From the IMG/VR virus record IMGVR_UViG_3300049995_000120, positions 16,506 to 80,505 of that record: a stretch of 64,000 bases of DNA. One strand, written 5' to 3'. Shown in pieces: positions 31,763-63,801 of this stretch. Position numbers and translations under genes: made by a program. The stretch comes from a virus. Position 1 is the stretch's first letter; the number at the start of each line of letters is the position of its first letter. The notes below the pieces were generated by a model that worked only from the letters and a program-made list of their open reading frames with translations, was not told the origin of the DNA and made no database searches.

Positions 31763-33109
31763 TCATTTTACGTAACTGTTGATGTCAACTGTCGTTGCAT
31801 TATGGAAAACAGGATAAACATTGTCTGAAAGAAGTTCAATCGTTCCCCTATTGAGTGGTTTGGCGATATTTCTGGTCTTGGTGAAGGTAAGATATGAAAC
31901 GTTCTGCCGTCCAGGTTCGGAGCATTGGGTGAGTATTGCGATAATATCGGCATCAAAAATGACTTGGGCGCTGCCGCGCACGTCCTTGCTAGTGGGAGTC
32001 GCCGTTGAGCCTATAATATCTTTGGTGGTCGAAAGCACAGTTATACCTGCCAGATCAAGATCCAGGGTGCTGCGTTTCACAAGTCTGGACAGTATGCTGG
32101 AGCGCGGCGTTTCATCCATATCCACATAACCAGACATCATCAACAAATAATCCAGGACAAACAACTCTATTCCCAGGTTCTTTTTGGCGCGCGCCAGTTC
32201 GGCATGGAACTCCTGCGGAGTCAGGGATTTGTCAGAAATATATATGGGTAAGGCTTCCAAGTATTCTATGTCACCCAAATAATTCTGGAAAACATCATCC
32301 TTTATGTTTCCGCTGTCCATCTGGAAGGTGCTGATATGTTCTCTGGTGCTGATGACCCTTTTAATAATTTGCGCTTCGCTCATCTCGAAGGAGAAGATAG
32401 CCACCGCATGATTGCCGTTCTCGGGTAATGATGCCTGTACAGCCATCTGTGTCGCCAACTTGGTCTTGCCCGAGGATGGCGGTCCCGAAATATAAAGCAC
32501 TTCGCCTTTCTGAACACCACCCGTGAAGTCATCATAATCGTAGAAACCGGTCTTGATCCCCCAGATATTGGATGGATTGGCTCTGCGCTGCTCCACGTAC
32601 TCGTAATTATTCTTTAGGCCAGCGCTGATATGGCGCAGCCCTTTATCGGCGCTCTGGGTGGCGCTCACGACATTATCCAGCACCTTCCCGATCCCCTCAT
32701 CGATCAGCTGGCTCTCGTCCAATGCCACCTGCGCCATGCGATTAGCTTGTTCGAGTAGCGCGCGTCTCTGGCTTTTCTCCTTGACGATCTTGGCATAAGC
32801 AACAAGGTTGAAAGAAGATACATTATTGATAATGGCAGTAAGGCCGGCAGGTCCCCCCACATCTTCCAGATCTCCATCTTTCCCCATCCGATCGATAATC
32901 GTCAGGAAGTCAACGGGAGTATTCTGCTCCCGCACCTTCTGTATAGCGCGCCAGATTGCGCGCGGGGTGCTGAAATAAAAATCAGACTCCTCCAAAAACC
33001 CAATCTCATCCATACCGGGGGAGTTGATCAAAACCGCTCCCACCAGTGACTCTTCTGCATCCCTGGACTGTGGAGGAAGGATGACTTCCTGCTCTAGCGT
33101 ATCAACCAC
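31763..33109 (-). CDS. dnaB: replicative DNA helicase
   Basis: PPQS.DAEESLVGA N-domain, Walker A GPPSSGKT, FSFEMS, VLDYL, RGS....DAD, K.RN; GTG start after GGAG. Confidence 0.92.
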   Translation of the reverse strand: MVDTLEQEVILPPQSRDAEESLVGAVLINSPGMDEIGFLEESDFYFSTPRAIWRAIQKVREQNTPVDFLTIIDRMGKDGDLEDVGGPAGLTAIINNVSSFNLVAYAKIVKEKSQRRALLEQANRMAQVALDESQLIDEGIGKVLDNVVSATQSADKGLRHISAGLKNNYEYVEQRRANPSNIWGIKTGFYDYDDFTGGVQKGEVLYISGPPSSGKTKLATQMAVQASLPENGNHAVAIFSFEMSEAQIIKRVISTREHISTFQMDSGNIKDDVFQNYLGDIEYLEALPIYISDKSLTPQEFHAELARAKKNLGIELFVLDYLLMMSGYVDMDETPRSSILSRLVKRSTLDLDLAGITVLSTTKDIIGSTATPTSKDVRGSAQVIFDADIIAILTQCSEPGRQNVSYLTFTKTRNIAKPLNRGTIELLSDNVYPVFHNATTVDINSYVK

Positions 33110-34007
33110 TTGGTTTATCTCCAAACGCAGACTCTAGAAGTTGCTCCTTCCACCATTCGGGGAAGCCAGCGATCAACCCTCTCTGTACCTTGGACCAGAA
33201 GTGAGCGAAGAGAATGTTTTTCATCTCCTCCTCGCATTCTTTCTTAGTGTCTTCCTTGATTTCCGTAATCAGAGCAGGTATGTCGCGCGGTGAGCCTTCC
33301 AGAGTGCCGGCATCGCGCAGGTGCTGAACCGCTTTCAGCCAGCGCGCGGGGGTGCGGTAGCGATCAATCAACGTTTGAAGTACATCGCCTTGCGTCGGGT
33401 TGGCCTTGCGCCACTCGCCTCCCTGAACCTCTTTGAATGCTTCTGAAACATACTTTCCAATGGCTATTTTCTTCTCAGATGTAAACAGGGTGTAGTTCTT
33501 GACCACCACCCCCTCGATCTTGGTGCCGCCTAAAATCGATTTGGTTTCCAGGAGTTCCTTCAACATCTCCGCGTTCTCCACTTTACCCTCATAGAGAACC
33601 GGGACACACTCCAGATCAATTAAACCAAACTCGATTTCCTTTTCTTCGGGAGTGAGATAGTCTTCCAAGCCTGTCTGGATATCGAATCCGATCATGTAAT
33701 TCTTGGGTATCCGATCATAGCAGAGTGTGTTGTGTTTTGGCTTGGTGAGATATTCACAGCGATAAATCCAGCCGGCGTGTAAGTTGGGCTGCAGGGACTT
33801 GATGGTTTGGCAGGCGTTTTCAAACATGGTTTCGGGGCTGTCGATCACCAGTTGTGCGCCTTTGGAGCGCGCCATCAGTTCGCCTTCAATAAGTCCAAAA
33901 CTTATTTGTGACCCATCGATCTTCTCTTCCACCAAAACCGGGTCATTGAATATCCCCTCGATCATTTTATGCCCTAAAGCGAATACGGTTGGATATGAAC
34001 CTATCAT
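33102..34007 (-). CDS. RNA ligase (Rnl2-like nucleotidyltransferase)
   Basis: motif I EKIDGS, CEY, FDI, VPVLYEG, EGVVVK and K.VS..FKE. Confidence 0.8.
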   Translation of the reverse strand: MIGSYPTVFALGHKMIEGIFNDPVLVEEKIDGSQISFGLIEGELMARSKGAQLVIDSPETMFENACQTIKSLQPNLHAGWIYRCEYLTKPKHNTLCYDRIPKNYMIGFDIQTGLEDYLTPEEKEIEFGLIDLECVPVLYEGKVENAEMLKELLETKSILGGTKIEGVVVKNYTLFTSEKKIAIGKYVSEAFKEVQGGEWRKANPTQGDVLQTLIDRYRTPARWLKAVQHLRDAGTLEGSPRDIPALITEIKEDTKKECEEEMKNILFAHFWSKVQRGLIAGFPEWWKEQLLESAFGDKPSG

Positions 34008-50349: not shown

Positions 50350-51078
50350 TTGAATCTCCAGTCTATGGTTGATTAAGAGAACGCCTGTATATCAGTATAC
50401 ACCAATTTAAGAAAATGTCAACTACCAATTACAATATTGTAAGGATAACAGCCCAATTGTCACCCTCTCCCGTCTCATCTGGTATCATCCCGCCGATCCC
50501 AAGTCAGGCATGGGGGGGGTATACCCTATCATCTTGTAGCATATGATTGTATAAGACAATTGTGATTCTATGCAATTAAACATGATGTGAATGGTCGCGA
50601 TAATGATTGTTAACTTAAGCATGAAATATTATCACGCATAGCTAACAACTAATCTTGCAAATTCAATTTTCGTTGCATCAATTGGTCGACTGCCCCACCA
50701 TTGGCCTAATTATATGGAATTAAATGGGATTGCATCATAATTTTAGCCAGGCGCAATGGGAGCATGGCCCACCGACGCGCAGGGGTTTCAAAAAAAGTTG
50801 CGCGGGGCTTGGCGGACTCGTTTAAACGGCAGGGAAAAATTCGCCTCTGGTCATTTACCCCCTAGGTGGTTGCGTGATCGTTCCGATCCTGTCTGGCAAG
50901 GTCCCAATATCCTTGACTCTTGGGGTGGGTGTGGTAAAATCTGGTTGTGCCTGACTTTGTATCTGTTTGTGTTTTACCAAACTGCTCCATGCCGTGGGGC
51001 AGTTTGGGTTTTAGTAGGAAAACCCTTGACTTTTTGGGGAGAGGGTAGTATAGTGGTTGGCAGAAGGAGATTGAGAGT

Positions 51079-52736: not shown

Positions 52737-52851
52737 TGTGGGAAAAGTGGGCGAAACGTCACCTTTTGTCTAACATTTATCTAGGTTTTGTACAAGGCGA
52801 TAAGGTTGTGAGCGACCAACCAAAAAATGAAAAGGAGTGACATCAAGAGAA

Positions 52852-53394
52852 ATGAGTTACTATTTTACAAGTGATTTACATCTAAGTCATAGAAATATCA
52901 TCAAATACTGTAATCGTCCCTTTGATGACGTAGAAGAGATGAATCGAGTAATAAGGAACCGCTGGAACTTTGTGGTCAATCCCGATGATATCGTCTATAT
53001 TCTAGGCGATGTTTCTTTTAGAGGACTAGAAGATCTGGATGAGTTTAATGGGCTGATACATATTCTTCCCGGTTCACATGATGGGAAACTGAAACAGTTG
53101 GGGACTATAAATACTATTGAGCCATCTGTAGTAGAACTAAAAATCCCTGATTTAATGGATGAGTATGGCAACCAACGTACCCTCGTGCTTTGTCATTATG
53201 CCATGCGAGTCTGGCCCCTGTCCCATTATGCCTCCTGGCACTTGTTTGGACATAGTCACGGTAATCTACCGCCTTATGGATTATCCTTTGATGTGGGTAT
53301 AGACACTAATGAATTTTATCCATATTCACTGGAAGATATCAAGAAGAAGATGGCTACTTTAACTCCTATCGTGGATTTTAGAAAGGGAAAATGA
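52852..53394 (+). CDS. calcineurin-like metallophosphoesterase
   Basis: FTSDLH..H.NII, LGD, GSHD, CHY, GHSH, DVG.D. Confidence 0.85.
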   Translation: MSYYFTSDLHLSHRNIIKYCNRPFDDVEEMNRVIRNRWNFVVNPDDIVYILGDVSFRGLEDLDEFNGLIHILPGSHDGKLKQLGTINTIEPSVVELKIPDLMDEYGNQRTLVLCHYAMRVWPLSHYASWHLFGHSHGNLPPYGLSFDVGIDTNEFYPYSLEDIKKKMATLTPIVDFRKGK

Positions 53395-55853
53395 GAAGGA
53401 TATACACGGTAAATCAGGCTGATGTGATTGATTGGGCGACTGGATATACAGGAGAACCATTTCACGCGCTGTTGTGCGATCCGCCTTACGAGTATGGTTT
53501 TATGGGGAAAAGTTGGGATGCGACTGGTATTTCGTACAGGAAGGAAACTTGGGAAGCGTACTTGCGTATCCTGTGTCCAGGTGGATTTGGGATGGCATTT
53601 GGAGGAGCTAGGACGGCGCATAGGCTGGCGGTGGCGATCGAGGACGCCGGCTTTGTGATTCATCCCCAGATTGCGTGGATCTATGGATGCTTAAGTGACG
53701 ACACAGAAATTTTGACGCGGCGCGGATGGGCACGATACGACCGGTTATTTGATGGCTGTATGGTTATGTGCTATAATGTAAATAGTGGAACGTTGAATTT
53801 TCTTCCTGTAGAAAAGGTTTGTGTCTATGAGTATGATGATATTGCCTATCATATCGTCTCAGAAAGAACCGATCAAATTGTCTCCAGAAATCATCGGTGT
53901 TTGGTTGAACGAGACAACCGATTTGTGTTTCGGGCGGCGGAGACATTGGAATGCCAAGAGATCCTACCCATACTGGAAAGTGTGCAGGAAGTGCGGGAGG
54001 CTATATTCAGTAAAAAACGTAAAGGAATATTACAAGAAAACTACCTGCGGACTTTATTGTTGCAAAACGGTAACAGGACCGCGACCGCAAATGATCGTTC
54101 CGCTAGAAAAGCGCAAAATTACAATGATAGTCTGCGCGGTATGTGGAAAGAAGGCAATGAGGCCAAATGCGTGGGTAAGGAGGGTAAAATTGCCAACGTG
54201 CTCCAATCATTGCAATGGAATATTGCGCGCGAAAGATTTATTGCCATATTCGGGAAAAGGACGAAGTGGCTGGACCGCAGAAAGTCTTGCCTCTTTTCGG
54301 CTGAAAATGTCGGGAGAAAACAATCCTGCCTGGAAAGGTGGCGTTACTTATTTTTACAAGCACGGAAATTATGCGCCGATAAAATATGTGCGGTGTCCAG
54401 ACGAATTTTTACTTATGGCGCGCAAAGATGGCTATGTTATGGAACACCGTCTATTAGTTGCGCAAATACTTCAGCGGTGTCTAAAACGAGGGGAAATTGT
54501 CCATCATATCAACCACAATCCTCAGGACAATCGCTTGGAAAATCTACAGTTATTCGCCAGCAACTCGGCACACAAGAAATACGAACACTATGGAGAACCA
54601 TTTCCGATCTGGCAACTATAAATTCAATTCAATACAAAGGAACAGTTTGGTGTGTAAAAGTCCCAACTGGCGCGTTTGTCGCGCGCAGGAATGGAAAGGT
54701 TTTTATTACTGGAAATAGTGGCTTTCCGAAAGCTACTAGGTTGGATGCGAGGATCGATGAACAGGCCGGCGCGGCCAGGGAGGAGGTAGGGACGGTTCGC
54801 AGATGGGGTGCCAATGCGGGGAAGGGTAGGGGCAATCAATACGCCAATGAGTACGAACCGTCTGAACCAGGGGCGGAGAAGTATGATCCTATTACCGCGC
54901 CAACTACGCCACTGGCGCAGGCGTGGGCGGGACATCGGTACGGCCTGCAGGCGCTGAAACCCGCACTGGAACCGATTGTGGTATTCCAGAAGCCGTATGA
55001 GGGGAAACCCATTGACTGTATCACGCGCACAGGCGCGGGTGCGCTGAATATTGAAGGAAGTCGGATTGGCACGGAGCCTGTGATCTCAAACCGTTGGACC
55101 GACAACGCTCATCCATTTGGGGGCGGTGCGGGGAATCCCTACGAGACGGTGCATAATCGGGGCCGCTGGCCGGCGAATGTGGTGCTATCTCATCTTCCCG
55201 ACTGTGGCGAGACCTGCGTTCCTGGCTGTCCCGTGAAGGCATTGGGTGAACAGAGTGGAGTTCTGACGAGCGGGAAGCCGGCTGGATTGAGACATGCGCC
55301 TAATAACATCTATGGGGAATATGGAACGGAGATACCTGTTACGGGCTATGGCGATTCGGGTTCTGCCGCGCGCTTTTTCTACAATGCAGACTGGATGTAC
55401 GAGCGATTGGAGAAGGATGATGGATTTGTGTACTGCGCCAAGGCCAACAAGAATGATCGCGATGCTGGATTAGATTCTATGCCATTACGCCAGAAATACG
55501 CAAAGGATGGTCGTGGGAACAGTCACGAAATTTTTACCAGCGCGAGTGCTCACGATTCGTCGTGGGCGAAAAAGAATCCCGCTTATCCACAAAGAAACCA
55601 TCATCCTGCCATCAAGCCGATTGCGTTGGTGCGGCATTTGGCGACTTTACTTCTCCCGCCGGCGATGTATTCGCCGCGCAGGATTGTGGTGCCGTTCTGC
55701 GGGAGCGGAAGCGAGATGATCGGCTGCCTGCGCGCGGGCTGGGAAGTGATTGAGGGAATCGAGAAGGAGAGTGAGTATTGCGACATTGCGCGCGCAAGGC
55801 TGGAATACTGGGCGAAGATTCCCATACAGCGGGAATTACCGCTAAACACTTGA
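53391..55853 (+). CDS. DNA methyltransferase (N4C/N6A, beta-type) containing an intein
   Basis: DPPY, FMGKSWD, W.YG|SGFPK, LKPA.EPI, GRWPAN, HP.IKP..L, PFCGSGS. Confidence 0.9.
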   Translation: MRRIYTVNQADVIDWATGYTGEPFHALLCDPPYEYGFMGKSWDATGISYRKETWEAYLRILCPGGFGMAFGGARTAHRLAVAIEDAGFVIHPQIAWIYGCLSDDTEILTRRGWARYDRLFDGCMVMCYNVNSGTLNFLPVEKVCVYEYDDIAYHIVSERTDQIVSRNHRCLVERDNRFVFRAAETLECQEILPILESVQEVREAIFSKKRKGILQENYLRTLLLQNGNRTATANDRSARKAQNYNDSLRGMWKEGNEAKCVGKEGKIANVLQSLQWNIARERFIAIFGKRTKWLDRRKSCLFSAENVGRKQSCLERWRYLFLQARKLCADKICAVSRRIFTYGAQRWLCYGTPSISCANTSAVSKTRGNCPSYQPQSSGQSLGKSTVIRQQLGTQEIRTLWRTISDLATINSIQYKGTVWCVKVPTGAFVARRNGKVFITGNSGFPKATRLDARIDEQAGAAREEVGTVRRWGANAGKGRGNQYANEYEPSEPGAEKYDPITAPTTPLAQAWAGHRYGLQALKPALEPIVVFQKPYEGKPIDCITRTGAGALNIEGSRIGTEPVISNRWTDNAHPFGGGAGNPYETVHNRGRWPANVVLSHLPDCGETCVPGCPVKALGEQSGVLTSGKPAGLRHAPNNIYGEYGTEIPVTGYGDSGSAARFFYNADWMYERLEKDDGFVYCAKANKNDRDAGLDSMPLRQKYAKDGRGNSHEIFTSASAHDSSWAKKNPAYPQRNHHPAIKPIALVRHLATLLLPPAMYSPRRIVVPFCGSGSEMIGCLRAGWEVIEGIEKESEYCDIARARLEYWAKIPIQRELPLNT
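53688..54716 (+). mobile_element. intein (343 aa) in the DNA methyltransferase
   Basis: starts CLSDDTEILT..GW, block B VS.NH, ends YKG.VWC..VPTGAFVARRNGKVFITGN|S; removing it restores YG-SGFPK. Confidence 0.92.
53821..54621 (+). CDS. HNH endonuclease overprinted in the +1 frame of the intein (true start uncertain)
   Basis: CxxC fingers, GENNPAWKGG, GYVMEHRL..A......L...E.VHHINH...DNR.ENL. Confidence 0.85.
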   Translation: MSMSMMILPIISSQKEPIKLSPEIIGVWLNETTDLCFGRRRHWNAKRSYPYWKVCRKCGRLYSVKNVKEYYKKTTCGLYCCKTVTGPRPQMIVPLEKRKITMIVCAVCGKKAMRPNAWVRRVKLPTCSNHCNGILRAKDLLPYSGKGRSGWTAESLASFRLKMSGENNPAWKGGVTYFYKHGNYAPIKYVRCPDEFLLMARKDGYVMEHRLLVAQILQRCLKRGEIVHHINHNPQDNRLENLQLFASNSAHKKYEHYGEPFPIWQL

Positions 55854-58656: not shown

Positions 58657-59409
58657 ATGAAACTCATGTATGATATGGGTAATGCCAAAATCTATCATGG
58701 TGATGCGCGCCACATGGATTCCATCGCGGATGGGTCTATCCATATGGTTATTACCTCGCCTCCATATCTCAATGCCCGAGATTACAGCCAGTGGAACAAT
58801 TATCAAGAGTATCTGGCAGATATGACTCTTGCTTGGAAAGAGTGTTACCGTGTGTTATGCGATGGTGGGCGGATTGCTGTCAATGTTCCGCTTGGATATG
58901 GACGCCAGAATAATGGACGCGATGGATATATGTGTATTGGAGATGATACGACACATGCACTTAAGGAGATTGGCTTTGCCATGCGTGGTCATATCATCTG
59001 GGTGAAGAGTTCGGGTCTTTCGTCAACCGCGTGGGGAAGTTGGCGTTCAGCTTCCGATCCTTGTCTACGCGATGCTCATGAAGTGATCATTGTAGCTCAT
59101 AAGGGTAAGTCAAAACGAGAAAAAGGGGAAAGTACGATTGATAAAGACACCTTCAAGCGCGCCACGACTTCTGTTTGGCAGATAACACCCGTTCAAGGTT
59201 GGCACCCTGCGCCGTTCCCCGATGAAATACCGCATCGGTTAATACAACTCTATACCTTTAAGGGAGACACAGTTCTCGATCCTTTCGCGGGAAGCATGAC
59301 AACTCCCTTTACTGCAGCGAGAGAGGGCAGGATTGGGATAGGGGTAGAATTAAATCTGGATTATCTCAAACAGGCATGTGGCACCATGTTCGTGAGGGAA
59401 GATGATTGA
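58657..59409 (+). CDS. DNA methyltransferase (N4C/N6A, beta-type)
   Basis: GDAR, ITSPPY, HPAPFP.E...RLI, VLDPFAGS, G.ELN..Y. Confidence 0.9.
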   Translation: MKLMYDMGNAKIYHGDARHMDSIADGSIHMVITSPPYLNARDYSQWNNYQEYLADMTLAWKECYRVLCDGGRIAVNVPLGYGRQNNGRDGYMCIGDDTTHALKEIGFAMRGHIIWVKSSGLSSTAWGSWRSASDPCLRDAHEVIIVAHKGKSKREKGESTIDKDTFKRATTSVWQITPVQGWHPAPFPDEIPHRLIQLYTFKGDTVLDPFAGSMTTPFTAAREGRIGIGVELNLDYLKQACGTMFVREDD

Positions 59410-60134: not shown

Positions 60135-60533
60135 ATGAGCGAACAATTGTTTACACCAGAAGAAATTGATGTCCTCTTTAACGCCTTGGAGTTATGGGAG
60201 AACGAATCCTTAGAGGCCGGCGATGTTGCGCGCGCCGTGATGGCAAACTTTTTTCGTGGGGAAAACACCGACATTGAGGAAAAGATGAGGACGGTGGAAC
60301 TTGAAAGCCGCACTGCCAAGCGGATGCGCAAGGAACAATCCGCTTATCTGAAAGTCAAGCTGTTGCAATTGCGCGATAAACAGGTCGTACGCGATGCCAT
60401 GGCAGATGTGTTCAAGGATGTGGTTCAGAAGGAAACTGGCGATGCCTTCGTGGATGGGTTGATCGGTCCTACAGATCGCGCCGAATTTGATCGCATCAAA
60501 AAAGATCTGGAGGAAGGATCAGGCAATTCCTGA
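60135..60533 (+). CDS. hypothetical protein
   Basis: AAGGAG SD; promoter TTGACG...TATACT. Confidence 0.6.
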   Translation: MSEQLFTPEEIDVLFNALELWENESLEAGDVARAVMANFFRGENTDIEEKMRTVELESRTAKRMRKEQSAYLKVKLLQLRDKQVVRDAMADVFKDVVQKETGDAFVDGLIGPTDRAEFDRIKKDLEEGSGNS

Positions 60534-60568
60534 CTTTGTGGTAAAATAGTAACACTGTACTTTAACAC

Positions 60569-60864
60569 GGGATAGAAAGGTTTCGACGGCTTGCGGAAAC
60601 TAAGCCGACTGAGCGCAAAAAACAAATGCTAACCCTATACGTTTCGCAGACGTTTTCGGATTTACTCCGCTCTGTCTAGCGGAGATGTTGTTCAACACTC
60701 CGGTCTCAGTTCCGGTCTACGTTCAATAATTGAGTGGTGGAGCCCGGTCAAGTCTATCTTGTTTCCCCCCCCTGGCCCCCTGCACCTACAGGTTAAACTA
60801 GGAATGCTCAGTACAGAGGCAAACTAAGGTAAGTCGGACCCGGGTTCGATTCCCGGCTATTCCA
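60569..60864 (+). ncRNA. ssrA: tmRNA
   Basis: 5' GGGATAG..GGTTTCGAC; 3' GACCCGGGTTCGATTCCCGG-CTATTCC-A; acceptor stem with G3-U wobble; internal ORF starting GCT after AAACAAAT. Confidence 0.88.
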
Positions 60865-60882
60865 CAATCCCAAACCCCAATA

Positions 60883-61064
60883 GGGTCGGTAGCAACGATG
60901 AGCGATAATGGGATAATGGGTAGTGACAGTGCCTCGAAAGTTGAAGGTAACGGCTATCGCAAAAGTTGTCGCCGGTATGAAGATTAGCGACTGGCTTTTA
61001 CGGCTTCTAAGGTGAAACTGTATGACGCGGCAAAGCCGATAAACTCAAAGCCAAGTGCCGACCC
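60883..61064 (+). ncRNA. unidentified structured RNA (182 nt)
   Basis: terminal helix GGGTCGGTA/TGCCGACCC enclosing several hairpins, between tmRNA and tRNA. Confidence 0.5.
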
Positions 61065-61068
61065 GCTT

Positions 61069-61137
61069 TACGGGGCGAAACGGTTTCAGTGGGTTTCATA
61101 AGCCCTACTCACGCAGGTCCGACTCCTGCCCCCGTTA
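61069..61137 (+). tRNA. tRNA-Met(CAT)-like, reduced D-arm
   Basis: acceptor ACGGGG/CCCCGT, anticodon GGGT-TTCATAA-GCCC, T arm GCAGG-TCCGACT-CCTGC. Confidence 0.65.
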
Positions 61138-61157
61138 CTACGTGCAAAAGCGAAGCA

Positions 61158-61311
61158 TATTGGACTTAGCCGGTCAGGCGCTCCGCGTAAAGCGAAAACC
61201 CTTGACGTACCCGATCGTGGTCGGGAATGACGGAGCGAAGCAGTAAGATCCCCTAGACTGCCAGGTGGTTGCAAGACCACCGAACCTTTACTTGTGGTGG
61301 CGAAGTCAATA
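61158..61311 (+). ncRNA. unidentified structured RNA (about 154 nt)
   Basis: closing helix and four internal helices including a GCAA tetraloop. Confidence 0.45.
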
Positions 61312-61335
61312 GTTCCCCACAGAAACCGAGGAACT

Positions 61336-61722
61336 ATGACTTTTAAATCACGAGAAGAAGAGAGTGTTTACAGAAGGAGAAAATATGCTGAAAACCCTGA
61401 GGCTTTTCGATATAAATCTGCCATGAGGGCTGACAGAGCCAGAAAAAGAATGCGAACACTATCTCAGAAAAGACGTTTAATCATTATGGAGATATTGGGT
61501 ACAAAATGTGTACGCTGTGGGTTCTCAGATTCAAGAGCATTACAAATCGATCATATTAATGGACATGGTGGTGCCGAAAGGAAAACATTTTCATCTCCTG
61601 GTGCCTATTATCAGCATATTATTGACATTAATGGAATAGGATATCAAATATTATGTGCAAACTGTAATATTATAAAGAAAATTGAAAATGATGAAACCAA
61701 CAGAAAGTATTTCTTTAAATAA
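61336..61722 (+). CDS. small HNH endonuclease
   Basis: CVRCG.SD.RALQIDHING.G...YQILCANCN. Confidence 0.8.
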   Translation: MTFKSREEESVYRRRKYAENPEAFRYKSAMRADRARKRMRTLSQKRRLIIMEILGTKCVRCGFSDSRALQIDHINGHGGAERKTFSSPGAYYQHIIDINGIGYQILCANCNIIKKIENDETNRKYFFK

Positions 61723-62011: not shown

Positions 62012-63130
62012 GTGCGCACAACCCTGATAGATATACCTGGACATGACCGGATGTGGGCGATTTATCCATTCAATGAGATGGATACAACGATCCGGGTTAA
62101 TCAACTGATTGATGGAAACGCCACCCCTCCCGTCTATTTCCCGCCTCGTATAGAAATTTCCATTTTCTGGCTAACATCTACGTGCCAAGTAAACGGAATT
62201 CAATGTGCTTTGGACAAAGCAAAAGAGGTATTGAGTGAGTGGCAATATAGAACAGGAACGAATATCTATGGATGAAAAACCCACCTGGCCTCCGCGTCCC
62301 TACGATGCTGAAACCTGCCGAAAGGCATTAAACTGGATGGCAGATCAGCCCAATCCGCCCGATGTAGAACAAGGCATTAAGGGCGTTCTTATACGCTGTC
62401 TTCATGAAAGATATGCCACTGATGGCGATGAAGAGAAAGCCAAGGCCAAAAGATATACTGTTCTAGGGTGGTTATTTGGCGACCCTACCAAGCGAATCAA
62501 GCCTATGTCTACGAAAGAACTTACGCGTGGGCAGTGGTATGCTTTGGAAAAATGGATAAAACCATCCAGGACGGTAACAGCAAAATGGCTTCCTTGTGAA
62601 GAATTTAAGACCGAATCGTTGTTCGTGTTGAGCGTCGCAATACAGAAAATGTATTCTGACGAGAGGGAAATGATGGTGCAGATAGGAGAAACCGAAAATG
62701 GGTAATACGATTGCTTCATGTGGTCATAAATTGACCCGTAAACAAGCGGTAACATTGAATCCCGTGCACGTACGCGGCATGAGCCGCGATGGTCATCGTG
62801 TTGTCAAGTATCTCCTGCTCTGTCCGAAATGTCATAAACACGCAATCGATAATCGCTGTATACTTATATCCGAAGCTGAACAAGAACGCTGGTTGTCGGG
62901 AATAGGAGGCGGCAATGTCTGGTAAATTAACCGCGATGGAAGGACTTACGGAAATCGTGGGTTGGCTGGTTGATGGGTTTTTGGTCGCCGCCGTGATTGT
63001 GGGATTGTGGGCGGTATATGTGTTTGCCGATCAAATCCTGACCATGGCTATTTTGTTCTTTGCCATATTCGGGATTATCGGGCTAATTTCTATGGTCATT
63101 CATTATCACTGGATGCGCAGGTCACAATGA
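62012..63130 (+). CDS. hypothetical genes (62012-62275, 62268-62705, 62698-62925, 62915-63130)
   Basis: coupled ORFs. Confidence 0.55.
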
Positions 63131-63801
63131 AGCCCAAGAGAACCTATCCTTGTAAAACGAATGAGCCATCTGCTCTGGACTTGTGTGGAACGCCTCCCTA
63201 CGCGCTTGAGCCTTTACTCCCTTATATCCCCAAATATTTACGGATCTGGGAGCCAGCCTGTGGCGAGGGTATCTTGGCGAATGCCCTTCGCATTGCAGGA
63301 TATGACGTTATTGAAACGGATATTGAGTTAGGGCAGGATTTCTTTGAATACCAGCCTCCCAAGTGGGATGTCATCATAACCAATCCGCCCTATGGGATTA
63401 AACCAGCTTGGACCGAGCATTGTTATGAGTTAGGGAAAGCCTTTGCCCTTCTCATGCCTACTGAATTTCAGGGGACAGGTGCCGCAGCAGAAATGTTCGA
63501 TCATTACGGAGTTGAAATCATGAATCTAACTCCGCGCGTCGATTTTAAAATGCCTGTTGAAAAATGGTTCTCCTGTGCCCAGTTCCCTGTTTCCTGGTAC
63601 TGCTCACAGATACTACCTTCGCAACTCATGTTTGAGTTTTTGAGAAAACCATCGCGCACCGAGAGTCGGCAGGTCTGGAAGAGGGATAAGAAGACGGGTT
63701 TTATGAAATTGATTACAGAACGCGGGTATGGCGATTGGACCGAGAGACCCGTGAGATATGATCCGATTAGTGAGAAATTTGAATACGATAAGGAGACTTG
63801 A
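63127..63801 (+). CDS. phage DNA adenine methyltransferase
   Basis: TP..A..PL, IWEPACGEG, DF, IITNPPY, FALL.P. Confidence 0.8.
   Translation: MKPKRTYPCKTNEPSALDLCGTPPYALEPLLPYIPKYLRIWEPACGEGILANALRIAGYDVIETDIELGQDFFEYQPPKWDVIITNPPYGIKPAWTEHCYELGKAFALLMPTEFQGTGAAAEMFDHYGVEIMNLTPRVDFKMPVEKWFSCAQFPVSWYCSQILPSQLMFEFLRKPSRTESRQVWKRDKKTGFMKLITERGYGDWTERPVRYDPISEKFEYDKET

What the first reader, a model, noticed from the sequence alone, without database searches (positions are those of the whole stretch)
60569..60864. Compact phage tmRNA with a long tag lacking the usual degron
Seen: 296 nt, alanyl identity kept (G3-U, discriminator A), CCA not encoded (CAA). The likely resume codon GCT at 60628 gives ANPIRFADVFGFTPLCLAEMLFNTPVSVPVYVQ* (33 codons, stop 60727-29), leaving little room for the usual downstream pseudoknots. 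Known: typical tags are about 10 aa and end in Ala-Ala for ClpXP. Inference: it rescues ribosomes while redirecting or sparing tagged proteins, or competes with host tmRNA for SmpB.
Basis: partly seen in the sequence, partly recalled or inferred. Interest (0 to 1): 0.75.

Follow-up and report, generated by a model that had tools for sequence, protein, structure and literature searches.

The report
Minimal phage tmRNA, orphan long tag
An uncultured freshwater-sediment phage carries a real but stripped-down ribosome-rescue RNA (tmRNA) that lacks the usual first pseudoknot and would add a 33-residue hydrophobic tail ending in glutamine instead of the usual short Ala-Ala tag, but no relative could be found, so it cannot be shown that this odd tail is selected rather than an accident of a displaced stop codon.

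Summary
ARAGORN (60569-60865) and Rfam RF00023 (55.8 bits, cut-off 47) both call a one-piece tmRNA. It has G3-U, discriminator A, no encoded CCA, resume codon GCU at 60628 and a 33-codon frame ending at UAA 60727-29. It lies inside phage genes, 21 nt behind a promoter motif that recurs three times in this phage. It is not at a prophage border.

New here: pseudoknot 1 is absent, with only 13 nt between helix 2d and the resume codon. The frame runs straight through a stable helix-5-like hairpin that begins at codon 13, where normal tags end. That hairpin's loop UAG is out of frame.

Among 71-81 reference tmRNAs sharing its T-arm it is the shortest, with the earliest resume codon and the longest tag. 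No other frame gives a canonical tag. In 32 Rhodothermales genomes (a weak host guess) tags are ANDYSYAMAA-like.

No relative of the RNA or the tag peptide was found, and a 33-codon open frame is not improbable by chance (P about 0.29).

This scan has reported phage tmRNAs with long tags on other DNA. This one does not belong to those conserved acidic-tag families.

Most likely it is a rescue-competent minimal tmRNA whose tag is not a ClpXP degron. This is a new variant of a known kind, of moderate interest.

The parts
60537..60547 (+). Extended -10 promoter motif TGTGGTAAAAT, 21 nt upstream of the tmRNA 5' end
   Evidence: Three exact copies in the window, all on the + strand (42454, 50930, 60537), against about 0.03 expected for an 11-mer. 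Function inferred, not shown.
60569..60864 (+). One-piece tmRNA gene (mature RNA through discriminator A60864; CCA not encoded)
   Evidence: ARAGORN; Rfam RF00023 55.8 bits, model 1-374
60569..60575 (+). Acceptor stem 5' strand; pairs with 60857-60863; G60571-U60861 is the G3-U alanine identity pair
   Evidence: Pair list; sequence
60576..60587 (+). D-loop analogue with the invariant GGUUUCGAC
   Evidence: Invariant columns in the alignment with 7 phage tmRNAs; posterior probability '*' in the Rfam alignment
60588..60594 (+). Helix 2a 5' strand GGCUUGC, pairs with GUAAGUC 60829-60835 (7 bp, 2 G-U)
   Evidence: placed as in the Rfam consensus, directly after GAC and before GGAC
60604..60614 (+). 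Helix 2b (GCC 60604-06 / GGC 60818-20) and helix 2d (CUGAGC 60609-14 / GCUCAG 60806-11), 5' strands
   Evidence: The model with these helices scores -31.8 kcal/mol against -28.6 for the competing local hairpin 60587-92/60602-07.
60615..60627 (+). Single-stranded A-rich leader GCAAAAAACAAAU; A at -4 (60624), C at -5. It occupies the place where PK1 plus leader normally lie.
   Evidence: Rfam shows 1 nt where the consensus has 26 (PK1). The resume codon is at position 60 against 84-100 in 71 references.
60628..60729 (+). Tag reading frame: GCU resume codon, 33 sense codons, UAA stop 60727-29
60665..60684 (+). Stable helix-5-like hairpin (7 bp, 6-nt loop) inside the frame, starting at codon 13; UAG 60677-79 at the loop edge is in the +1 frame
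   Evidence: -11.4 kcal/mol against shuffles -4.7 +/- 2.1, P about 0.003; frame; aligned by Rfam to helix 5 at low posterior probability
60699..60722 (+). In-frame tandem 12-nt repeat (10/12 identical), coding TPVS/VPVY-type units
   Evidence: tandem arrangement P about 0.002. A larger duplication is not significant (P 0.09).
60716..60741 (+). Weak hairpin whose triloop is the in-frame UAA stop
   Evidence: -6.2 kcal/mol, P about 0.08
60730..60805 (+). Remnant of the pseudoknot domain (76 nt, C-rich), no convincing pseudoknot
   Evidence: The nested fold is no better than shuffles. The best H-type pseudoknot is not above chance, P 0.27.
60840..60856 (+). T-arm (5-bp stem, loop UUCGAUU)
   Evidence: The 23-nt word that includes it is shared with 7 phage and at least 74 bacterial tmRNAs.

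Best explanation
This is a phage-encoded one-piece tmRNA, transcribed from its own extended -10 promoter. RNase P and host 3' trimming plus CCA addition would mature it, host AlaRS would charge it through G3-U, and host SmpB and EF-Tu would deliver it to stalled ribosomes. Its selected job is most likely ribosome release during infection, not ClpXP-directed proteolysis. PK1 has been deleted and the pseudoknot ring has decayed. The stop codon that should sit in the helix-5 loop is out of frame, so translation resumes at GCU 60628 and reads through the helix-5-like hairpin to the next in-frame stop. This appends about 33 mostly hydrophobic residues ending in Gln. On this reading the distal two thirds of the tag is a by-product of relaxed constraint on the template, not a designed signal. 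Shown: the gene, its tRNA-like domain, the helix 2 pairings, the resume context, the frame, the missing PK1 and the phage context. Inferred: transcription, charging, SmpB use, actual tagging, and the history of the stop codon.
For: The tRNA-like domain is intact at every position invariant among 8 tmRNAs, with G3-U and discriminator A. Rfam scores above its cut-off with high posterior probability over the TLD, helix 2 and the A-rich leader plus GCU-AAC. A is at -4, the main frame-setting base in E. coli. C is at -5, and U85C is harmless there (PMC2481249). E. coli tmRNA still tags when PK1 is replaced by a hairpin or by single-stranded RNA (PMC4236655). The tag sequence is not needed for phage growth, only ribosome release (PMC2481249). 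A promoter motif shared with two other + strand sites lies 21 nt upstream. The gene sits beside a divergent tRNA(CAU), and the phage also has an RNA ligase and a phosphoesterase, which fits a translation-maintenance module. The helix-5-like hairpin starts at codon 13 with an out-of-frame UAG at its loop. The resume-to-T-arm distance of 206 nt is within the reference range of 194-296, so the frame has grown into a body of near-normal size.
Against: There are no relatives, so there is no covariation and no test of selection on the frame. No RNA data exist. A natural tmRNA with no PK1 at all has hardly any precedent (PMC1168896 lists only Oenococcus and one plastid, and both keep helix 3). No SmpB gene is in the held 72% of the genome, so function depends on an unknown host's SmpB. 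No simple frameshift restores a canonical tag, because the +1 frame ends in RSV, so the displaced-stop history is not demonstrated.
Confidence: 0.45

Rival explanations
1. The long tag is itself the selected product: an alternative degron or sorting signal. It is hydrophobic and aromatic-rich, so it could route rescued chains to Lon- or FtsH-type proteases, or into aggregates or the membrane, instead of ClpXP. This would parallel the 27-residue Lon-directed Mycoplasma tag.
For: The tag has GRAVY +0.78 and is 15% aromatic, against -0.43 for the E. coli tag. Lon recognises hydrophobic stretches (PMC11986505). The Mycoplasma tag is long, hydrophobic and aromatic, and Lon degrades it in vivo (PMC8403727). 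The in-frame stop sits in a hairpin triloop, as stops do in helix 5 of normal tmRNAs (PMC1168896). There is an in-frame 12-nt tandem repeat.
Against: Back-translated patterns of both tag halves find nothing in IMG/VR. The open frame is not improbable by chance (P 0.29). The stop hairpin is weak (P 0.08). The terminal residue is Gln, whereas known tags end in a hydrophobic residue with Carsonella the only exception (PMC4131195). No protease or unfoldase gene was found: ClpP is absent.
Confidence: 0.15
2. It is an SmpB, EF-Tu or AlaRS decoy. Only the tRNA-like domain matters, and the RNA soaks up host SmpB to blunt host trans-translation. The template part is a decaying remnant.
For: The TLD is perfectly kept while PK1 is gone and the pseudoknot ring is degenerate. 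There is precedent: mycobacteriophage DS6A carries little more than a TLD, and such a molecule strongly inhibits tmRNA, perhaps by titrating SmpB (PMC4131195).
Against: Helix 2, the A-rich leader with A at -4, and GCU-AAC are all kept in canonical form, which a pure decoy does not need. Phage growth assays in E. coli show that phages benefit from ribosome release (PMC2481249).
Confidence: 0.15
3. It is a captured ssrA gene in neutral decay with no current function.
For: It has the lowest Rfam score of all tmRNAs examined (55.8 against 73.9-184 bits). Pseudoknots are lost and the tag is non-canonical and orphan. Mobile HNH and LAGLIDADG-type genes surround it (note e1-6094441).
Against: Decay has spared every invariant TLD position and the resume context. 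The gene has a phage-type promoter motif. The same sequence occurs without a single difference in four sediment samples, though that only shows one strain.
Confidence: 0.2
4. It is the host's ssrA gene at a prophage attachment site, wrongly included in a viral contig.
For: ssrA is a common integration site, and the gene lies 3 kb from the contig end.
Against: Phage-type genes lie on both sides on the same strand: methyltransferases, then HNH, then another methyltransferase. There is no integrase and no second copy of the ssrA 3' end. The RNA is unlike any of 74 + 32 bacterial tmRNAs examined.
Confidence: 0.02

Closest known systems
Canonical one-piece bacterial tmRNA (SsrA, Rfam RF00023), e.g. 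E. coli with tag ANDENYALAA
   Same: Acceptor stem with G3-U, discriminator A, T-arm, D-loop analogue, three-part helix 2, A-rich leader with A at -4, GCN-AAC start of the tag, in-frame UAA.
   Different: No PK1. At most remnants of PK2-4. 297 nt against a median of 362-371. Resume codon at position 60 against 84-100. A 33-codon hydrophobic tag ending in Gln instead of about 10 residues ending in AA.
tmRNA of mycobacteriophage Bxz1 and related cluster C phages
   Same: Phage-encoded, set among tRNA genes, with a long tag (25 aa) that does not end in Ala-Ala (PMC4131195).
   Different: Bxz1's RNA is full-sized (435 nt, resume codon at 96, 73.9 bits). Its tag is acidic, alanine-rich and ends in hydrophobic LV. 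There is no sequence resemblance to the window's tag.
Phage tmRNAs of IMG/VR sharing the same T-arm (L001-L003, L005-L008)
   Same: Phage-borne, with an identical 23-nt T-arm word and the same D-loop analogue. Four of the seven also lack an encoded CCA.
   Different: They have PK1, are 317-391 nt, score 79-128 bits and have 12-14-residue tags ending in AA.
Mycoplasma tmRNA tags (27 aa, Lon-directed)
   Same: A long tag enriched in hydrophobic and aromatic residues and not aimed at ClpXP (PMC8403727).
   Different: That is a bacterial RNA, not a phage one. Sequence similarity to that tag was not tested. The Mycoplasma tag is conserved and shown to be a Lon degron, and neither is known here.
Engineered E. 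coli tmRNAs with PK1 replaced by a hairpin or single strand; natural tmRNA of Oenococcus oeni lacking helix 4
   Same: They show that a tmRNA without a PK1 pseudoknot can work or exists (PMC4236655, PMC1168896).
   Different: Those keep a substitute element of similar length. Here the segment is simply absent, with 13 nt between helix 2d and the resume codon.
TLD-only mini-tmRNA of mycobacteriophage DS6A
   Same: A phage-borne, reduced tmRNA and a possible SmpB titrator (PMC4131195).
   Different: The window's RNA keeps helix 2, the leader, the resume codon and a terminated reading frame.

Membership tests
One-piece tmRNA (SsrA, RF00023) | Score at or above Rfam's gathering threshold over the whole model | tested here: met
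   55.8 bits against 47, model positions 1-374; ARAGORN also calls it
One-piece tmRNA (SsrA, RF00023) | tRNA-like domain: 7-bp acceptor stem with G3-U70, discriminator A, canonical T-arm, D-loop analogue | tested here: met
   Pair list; invariant columns; CCA not encoded, as in 4 of 7 comparable phage tmRNAs
One-piece tmRNA (SsrA, RF00023) | Helix 2 joining the TLD to the rest, starting right after GAC and ending right before GGAC | tested here: met
   7 + 3 + 6 bp, -31.8 kcal/mol for the whole model; single sequence, so no covariation
One-piece tmRNA (SsrA, RF00023) | Single-stranded leader with A at -4, then a GCN resume codon and an in-frame stop | tested here: met
   Leader GCAAAAAACAAAU, GCU-AAC, UAA at 60727; rule from PMC2481249
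One-piece tmRNA (SsrA, RF00023) | Pseudoknot 1 between helix 2d and the leader (near-universal, but experimentally dispensable) | tested here: not met
   1 nt where the model has 26; gap of about 35 nt in alignment A1; resume codon at position 60 against 84-100
One-piece tmRNA (SsrA, RF00023) | Helix 5 carrying the stop codon, then PK2-PK4 | tested here: inconclusive
   The stable hairpin at 60665-84 has only an out-of-frame UAG, and the in-frame UAA is in a weak hairpin. The remaining 76 nt show no pseudoknot above chance.
One-piece tmRNA (SsrA, RF00023) | Short tag ending in a hydrophobic residue, usually Ala-Ala | tested here: not met
   33 residues ending YVQ. 74 of 81 references end in AA and 32 of 32 Rhodothermales tags end in A.
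One-piece tmRNA (SsrA, RF00023) | Alanylation, SmpB binding, tagging of non-stop products | not testable with these tools
   No RNA run holds the stretch; needs experiments
Conserved phage long-tag tmRNAs (Bxz1 type and the acidic-helix families reported earlier in this scan) | Long tag built around an acidic helix, ending in a hydrophobic residue (LV or AA) | tested here: not met
   The window's tag has only 2 acidic residues, GRAVY +0.78, and ends in Gln. The Bxz1 tag was fetched for comparison.
Conserved phage long-tag tmRNAs (Bxz1 type and the acidic-helix families reported earlier in this scan) | Tag kept as a peptide in many phages | tested here: not met
   Back-translated patterns of both halves give 0 hits in IMG/VR. 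The acceptor plus T-arm word gives 0 hits in JGI metagenomes.
TLD-only phage mini-tmRNA (DS6A type) | Little more than the tRNA-like domain, no template | tested here: not met
   Helix 2, leader, resume codon and a 102-nt frame are present
ssrA fragment or gene at a prophage attachment site | Adjacent integrase and a repeated ssrA 3' end; host genes on one side | tested here: not met
   No PF00589 match, a single copy of the T-arm word, phage genes on both sides

The most novel reading that the evidence does not exclude
This is a naturally minimal tmRNA that works without any PK1 and with almost no pseudoknot ring. The phage uses it to attach a long hydrophobic, aromatic-rich tail to stalled chains, routing them to a non-ClpXP fate (Lon or FtsH, membrane or aggregate). 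That would make it a phage-designed alternative tagging system running on host SmpB.
Probability: 0.15. Interest if true: 0.65.

Novelty: new variant of a known kind. Interest (0 to 1): 0.35.

Why it matters
Phage tmRNAs are known but their role is unsettled. If this one is active, it would be a natural proof that PK1 and most of the pseudoknot ring are dispensable, which so far is shown only with engineered E. coli mutants. It would also separate ribosome release from ClpXP tagging in a phage setting. If the tail proves to be a signal, it would be a new degron class. If it is inactive, it shows how captured ssrA genes decay in phages: the template and pseudoknots go first and the tRNA-like domain last. 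As it stands it is a single orphan sequence without expression data, so its weight is limited.

Tried and rejected
- **Relatives of the RNA.** blastn against 50,697 cultured phages gave no match. Exact 5' word in IMG/VR: 0 hits. The short-5'-layout pattern in IMG/VR gave 9 hits, none a tmRNA. The acceptor plus T-arm word in JGI metagenomes gave 0 hits.
- **Relatives of the tag peptide.** Back-translated patterns gave 0 and 0 hits. The tag is too short for the search for related loci.
- **Relatives of the phage.**
  - Upstream ORF: no IMG/VR relative. It has one homolog, P0002 (67% identity, 2.8-kb JGI contig).
  - Terminase: no IMG/VR relative.
  - The phrog_874 protein is too widespread to be useful.
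- **Natural variation.** Four sediment runs hold the same strain with zero differences.
- **Expression.** No RNA holder is listed.
- **Whole-RNA MFE fold.** Uninformative, z = -0.58.
- **Larger internal duplication of the tag.** Not significant, P 0.09.
- **T-arm word as a host marker.** It occurs in more than 10 phyla.
- **Permuted-tmRNA hit at 60809-61008.** 21.3 bits, below the cut-off.
- **Host ssrA at an att site.** Rejected.
- **Alternative resume codon GCA 60646.** Same frame, and U rather than A at -4.

Full report
**Observation.** ARAGORN finds a single gene in the 64-kb window, a tmRNA at 60569-60865 on the + strand. Rfam's tmRNA model RF00023 matches 60569-60867 over its whole length at 55.8 bits (gathering 47, E 3.4e-19). 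The acceptor stem 60569-75/60857-63 reads G-C, G-C, G-U, A-U, U-A, A-U, G-C. A60864 is the discriminator and is followed by CAA. GCU at 60628 opens 33 sense codons closed by UAA at 60727-29. A contig from an independent sequencing run covers 60405-60929 without a difference, so the gene is not an assembly artefact. All stated facts are confirmed.

**Context.** The window is bases 16506-80505 of an 80.5-kb IMG/VR virus record, estimated 72% complete.
- The record carries a large terminase, tail and tail-spike genes, an endolysin, a DnaB helicase and an RNA ligase.
- The tmRNA is flanked on the same strand by DNA methyltransferases upstream, and by an HNH endonuclease and another methyltransferase downstream.
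- There is no integrase and no second copy of the ssrA 3' end. The idea of a host ssrA at an attachment site is therefore rejected.
- The motif TGTGGTAAAAT, an extended -10 element, occurs exactly three times, always on the + strand. One copy ends 21 nt before the tmRNA's first base. This suggests its own promoter and a short leader for RNase P, which is an inference.
- About 200 nt downstream, ARAGORN calls a divergent 70-nt tRNA(CAU) at 61069-61138 once its threshold is relaxed by 5%. Default ARAGORN and Rfam miss it.
- No SmpB and no ClpP gene is in the held record.
- The DNA comes from freshwater sediment.

**Anatomy.**
- *Conserved parts.* The tRNA-like domain is canonical at every position invariant among eight tmRNAs. 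Helix 2 can be drawn as in the consensus: 2a GGCUUGC 60588-94 with GUAAGUC 60829-35, 2b 60604-06 with 60818-20, and 2d CUGAGC 60609-14 with GCUCAG 60806-11. This model scores -31.8 kcal/mol against -28.6 for a competing local hairpin.
- *Missing PK1.* Only 13 nt (GCAAAAAACAAAU) separate helix 2d from the resume codon. Rfam shows 1 nt where its consensus has 26, and the alignment with seven phage tmRNAs shows a gap of about 35 nt.
- *Resume context.* The leader keeps A at -4, the main frame-setting base in E. coli. It has C at -5, a change that is harmless there (PMC2481249).
- *Hairpins and stops.* Inside the frame, a stable hairpin at 60665-84 (-11.4 kcal/mol; shuffles -4.7 +/- 2.1) begins at codon 13, where ordinary tags end. 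A UAG at its loop edge lies in the +1 frame. The in-frame UAA forms the triloop of a weak hairpin.
- *3' domain.* The 76 nt between the stop and helix 2d fold no better than shuffles and offer no pseudoknot above chance.

**Comparison sets.** Seven IMG/VR phage tmRNAs with the same 23-nt T-arm word are 317-391 nt, score 79-128 bits and encode 12-14-residue tags ending in AA. I pooled them with 74 bacterial tmRNAs carrying the same word, from more than ten phyla. In that pool the window's RNA is the shortest, has the earliest resume codon and has the longest tag, and 74 of 81 tags end in AA.

| Measure | Window | 71 references with plausible tag calls |
|---|---|---|
| Stop codon to T-arm (nt) | 104 | 152-245 |
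| Resume codon to T-arm (nt) | 206 | 194-296 |

So the body behind the resume codon is close to normal size. The frame has expanded into what is normally helix 5 and PK2, and PK1 was lost. No reference resembles the window's RNA outside the universal elements.

**The tag.**
- No other frame helps. The +1 frame gives 16 codons ending RSV, the third frame stops at once, and a later GCA is in the same frame with U at -4.
- An open frame of 33 codons or more from a fixed start occurs in 29% of shuffles, so length alone is not evidence of selection.
- The distal part holds an in-frame tandem 12-nt repeat (P about 0.002). A larger duplication is not significant.
- The peptide is hydrophobic (GRAVY +0.78, 15% aromatic) and ends in Gln. 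According to PMC4131195, natural tags end in a hydrophobic residue, with Carsonella as the only exception.
- Neither half of the peptide is found in IMG/VR by back-translation. The RNA's acceptor plus T-arm word is absent from the JGI metagenomes.
- The terminase's nearest cultured relatives are Salinibacter phages at 39% identity, a weak hint of a Rhodothermales-like host. In 32 genomes of that order the tmRNA is 363-404 nt with an ANDYSYAMAA-type tag.

**Mechanism.**
- *Best reading (0.45).* This is a rescue-competent minimal tmRNA that depends on host AlaRS, SmpB, EF-Tu and the CCA-adding enzyme. Its selected function is ribosome release, and its tag is a by-product of a displaced stop codon. 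Support comes from the intact TLD and resume context, the promoter, the translation-RNA neighbourhood, and published work. PK1 can be replaced by a hairpin or single strand (PMC4236655), and phage growth needs ribosome release, not the tag (PMC2481249).
- *Rivals.* The tag is a selected Lon/FtsH-type signal, by analogy with the Mycoplasma tag (PMC8403727) (0.15). The RNA is an SmpB decoy like the TLD-only molecule of phage DS6A (PMC4131195) (0.15). The gene is in neutral decay (0.20).
- *Limit.* None of these can be separated without relatives or experiments.

**Known relatives of the idea.** Phage tmRNAs occur in about 2.3% of isolate genomes (PMC9004378). Bxz1's tmRNA, examined here with the same tools, is 435 nt and has a 25-residue acidic tag ending in LV. 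Earlier notes of this scan report conserved phage families with tags of about 33 residues built on an acidic helix. The present tag is neither acidic nor conserved and does not end in a hydrophobic residue, and its RNA lacks PK1. I therefore do not place it in those families.

**Verdict.** This is a real phage tmRNA and a new variant of a known kind: PK1-less, with an orphan hydrophobic 33-codon tag. That blocked the one comparison most likely to settle the matter, the contig of P0002.

Noticed in passing
window 61069-61138 (+): Divergent 70-nt tRNA(CAU) with a 4-bp D stem and tiny D loop, a U-U mismatch at the top of the acceptor stem and T-loop UCCGACU. ARAGORN calls it only at a 95% threshold, and Rfam finds nothing at E up to 5. 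It could be a Met/Ile2-type phage tRNA or a decaying one.
   Followed up: partly
window 42454, 50930, 60537 (+): TGTGGTAAAAT occurs three times exactly, all on the + strand: a likely phage extended -10 promoter family. I did not examine what lies behind the copy at 50930.
   Followed up: partly
window 60866-61068 and 61139-61293 (+): About 360 nt of non-coding DNA around the tRNA-like element, between the tmRNA and the HNH gene. There is no Rfam match at E up to 5 apart from a sub-threshold permuted-tmRNA hit driven by the T-arm (21.3 bits).
   Followed up: partly
window 33102-34007 (-) and 52837-53394 (+): An RNA ligase (phrog_548) and a phosphoesterase (phrog_547) are encoded in the same phage. 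Together with the tmRNA and tRNA they suggest an RNA-repair and translation-maintenance theme, possibly against host anticodon nucleases.
   Followed up: no
window 53391-55853, 58657-59409, 63007-63801 (+); L089 14872-15570 (-): At least four DNA methyltransferase genes lie in one 80-kb phage record, interspersed with homing-endonuclease-type genes (HNH at 61294-61722).
   Followed up: no
L005 5481-5672 (-): In an unrelated 194-kb IMG/VR phage, Rfam reports a permuted-tmRNA match (54.1 bits, above the cut-off) overlapping its standard one-piece tmRNA (127 bits). It is probably a model overlap artefact.
   Followed up: no
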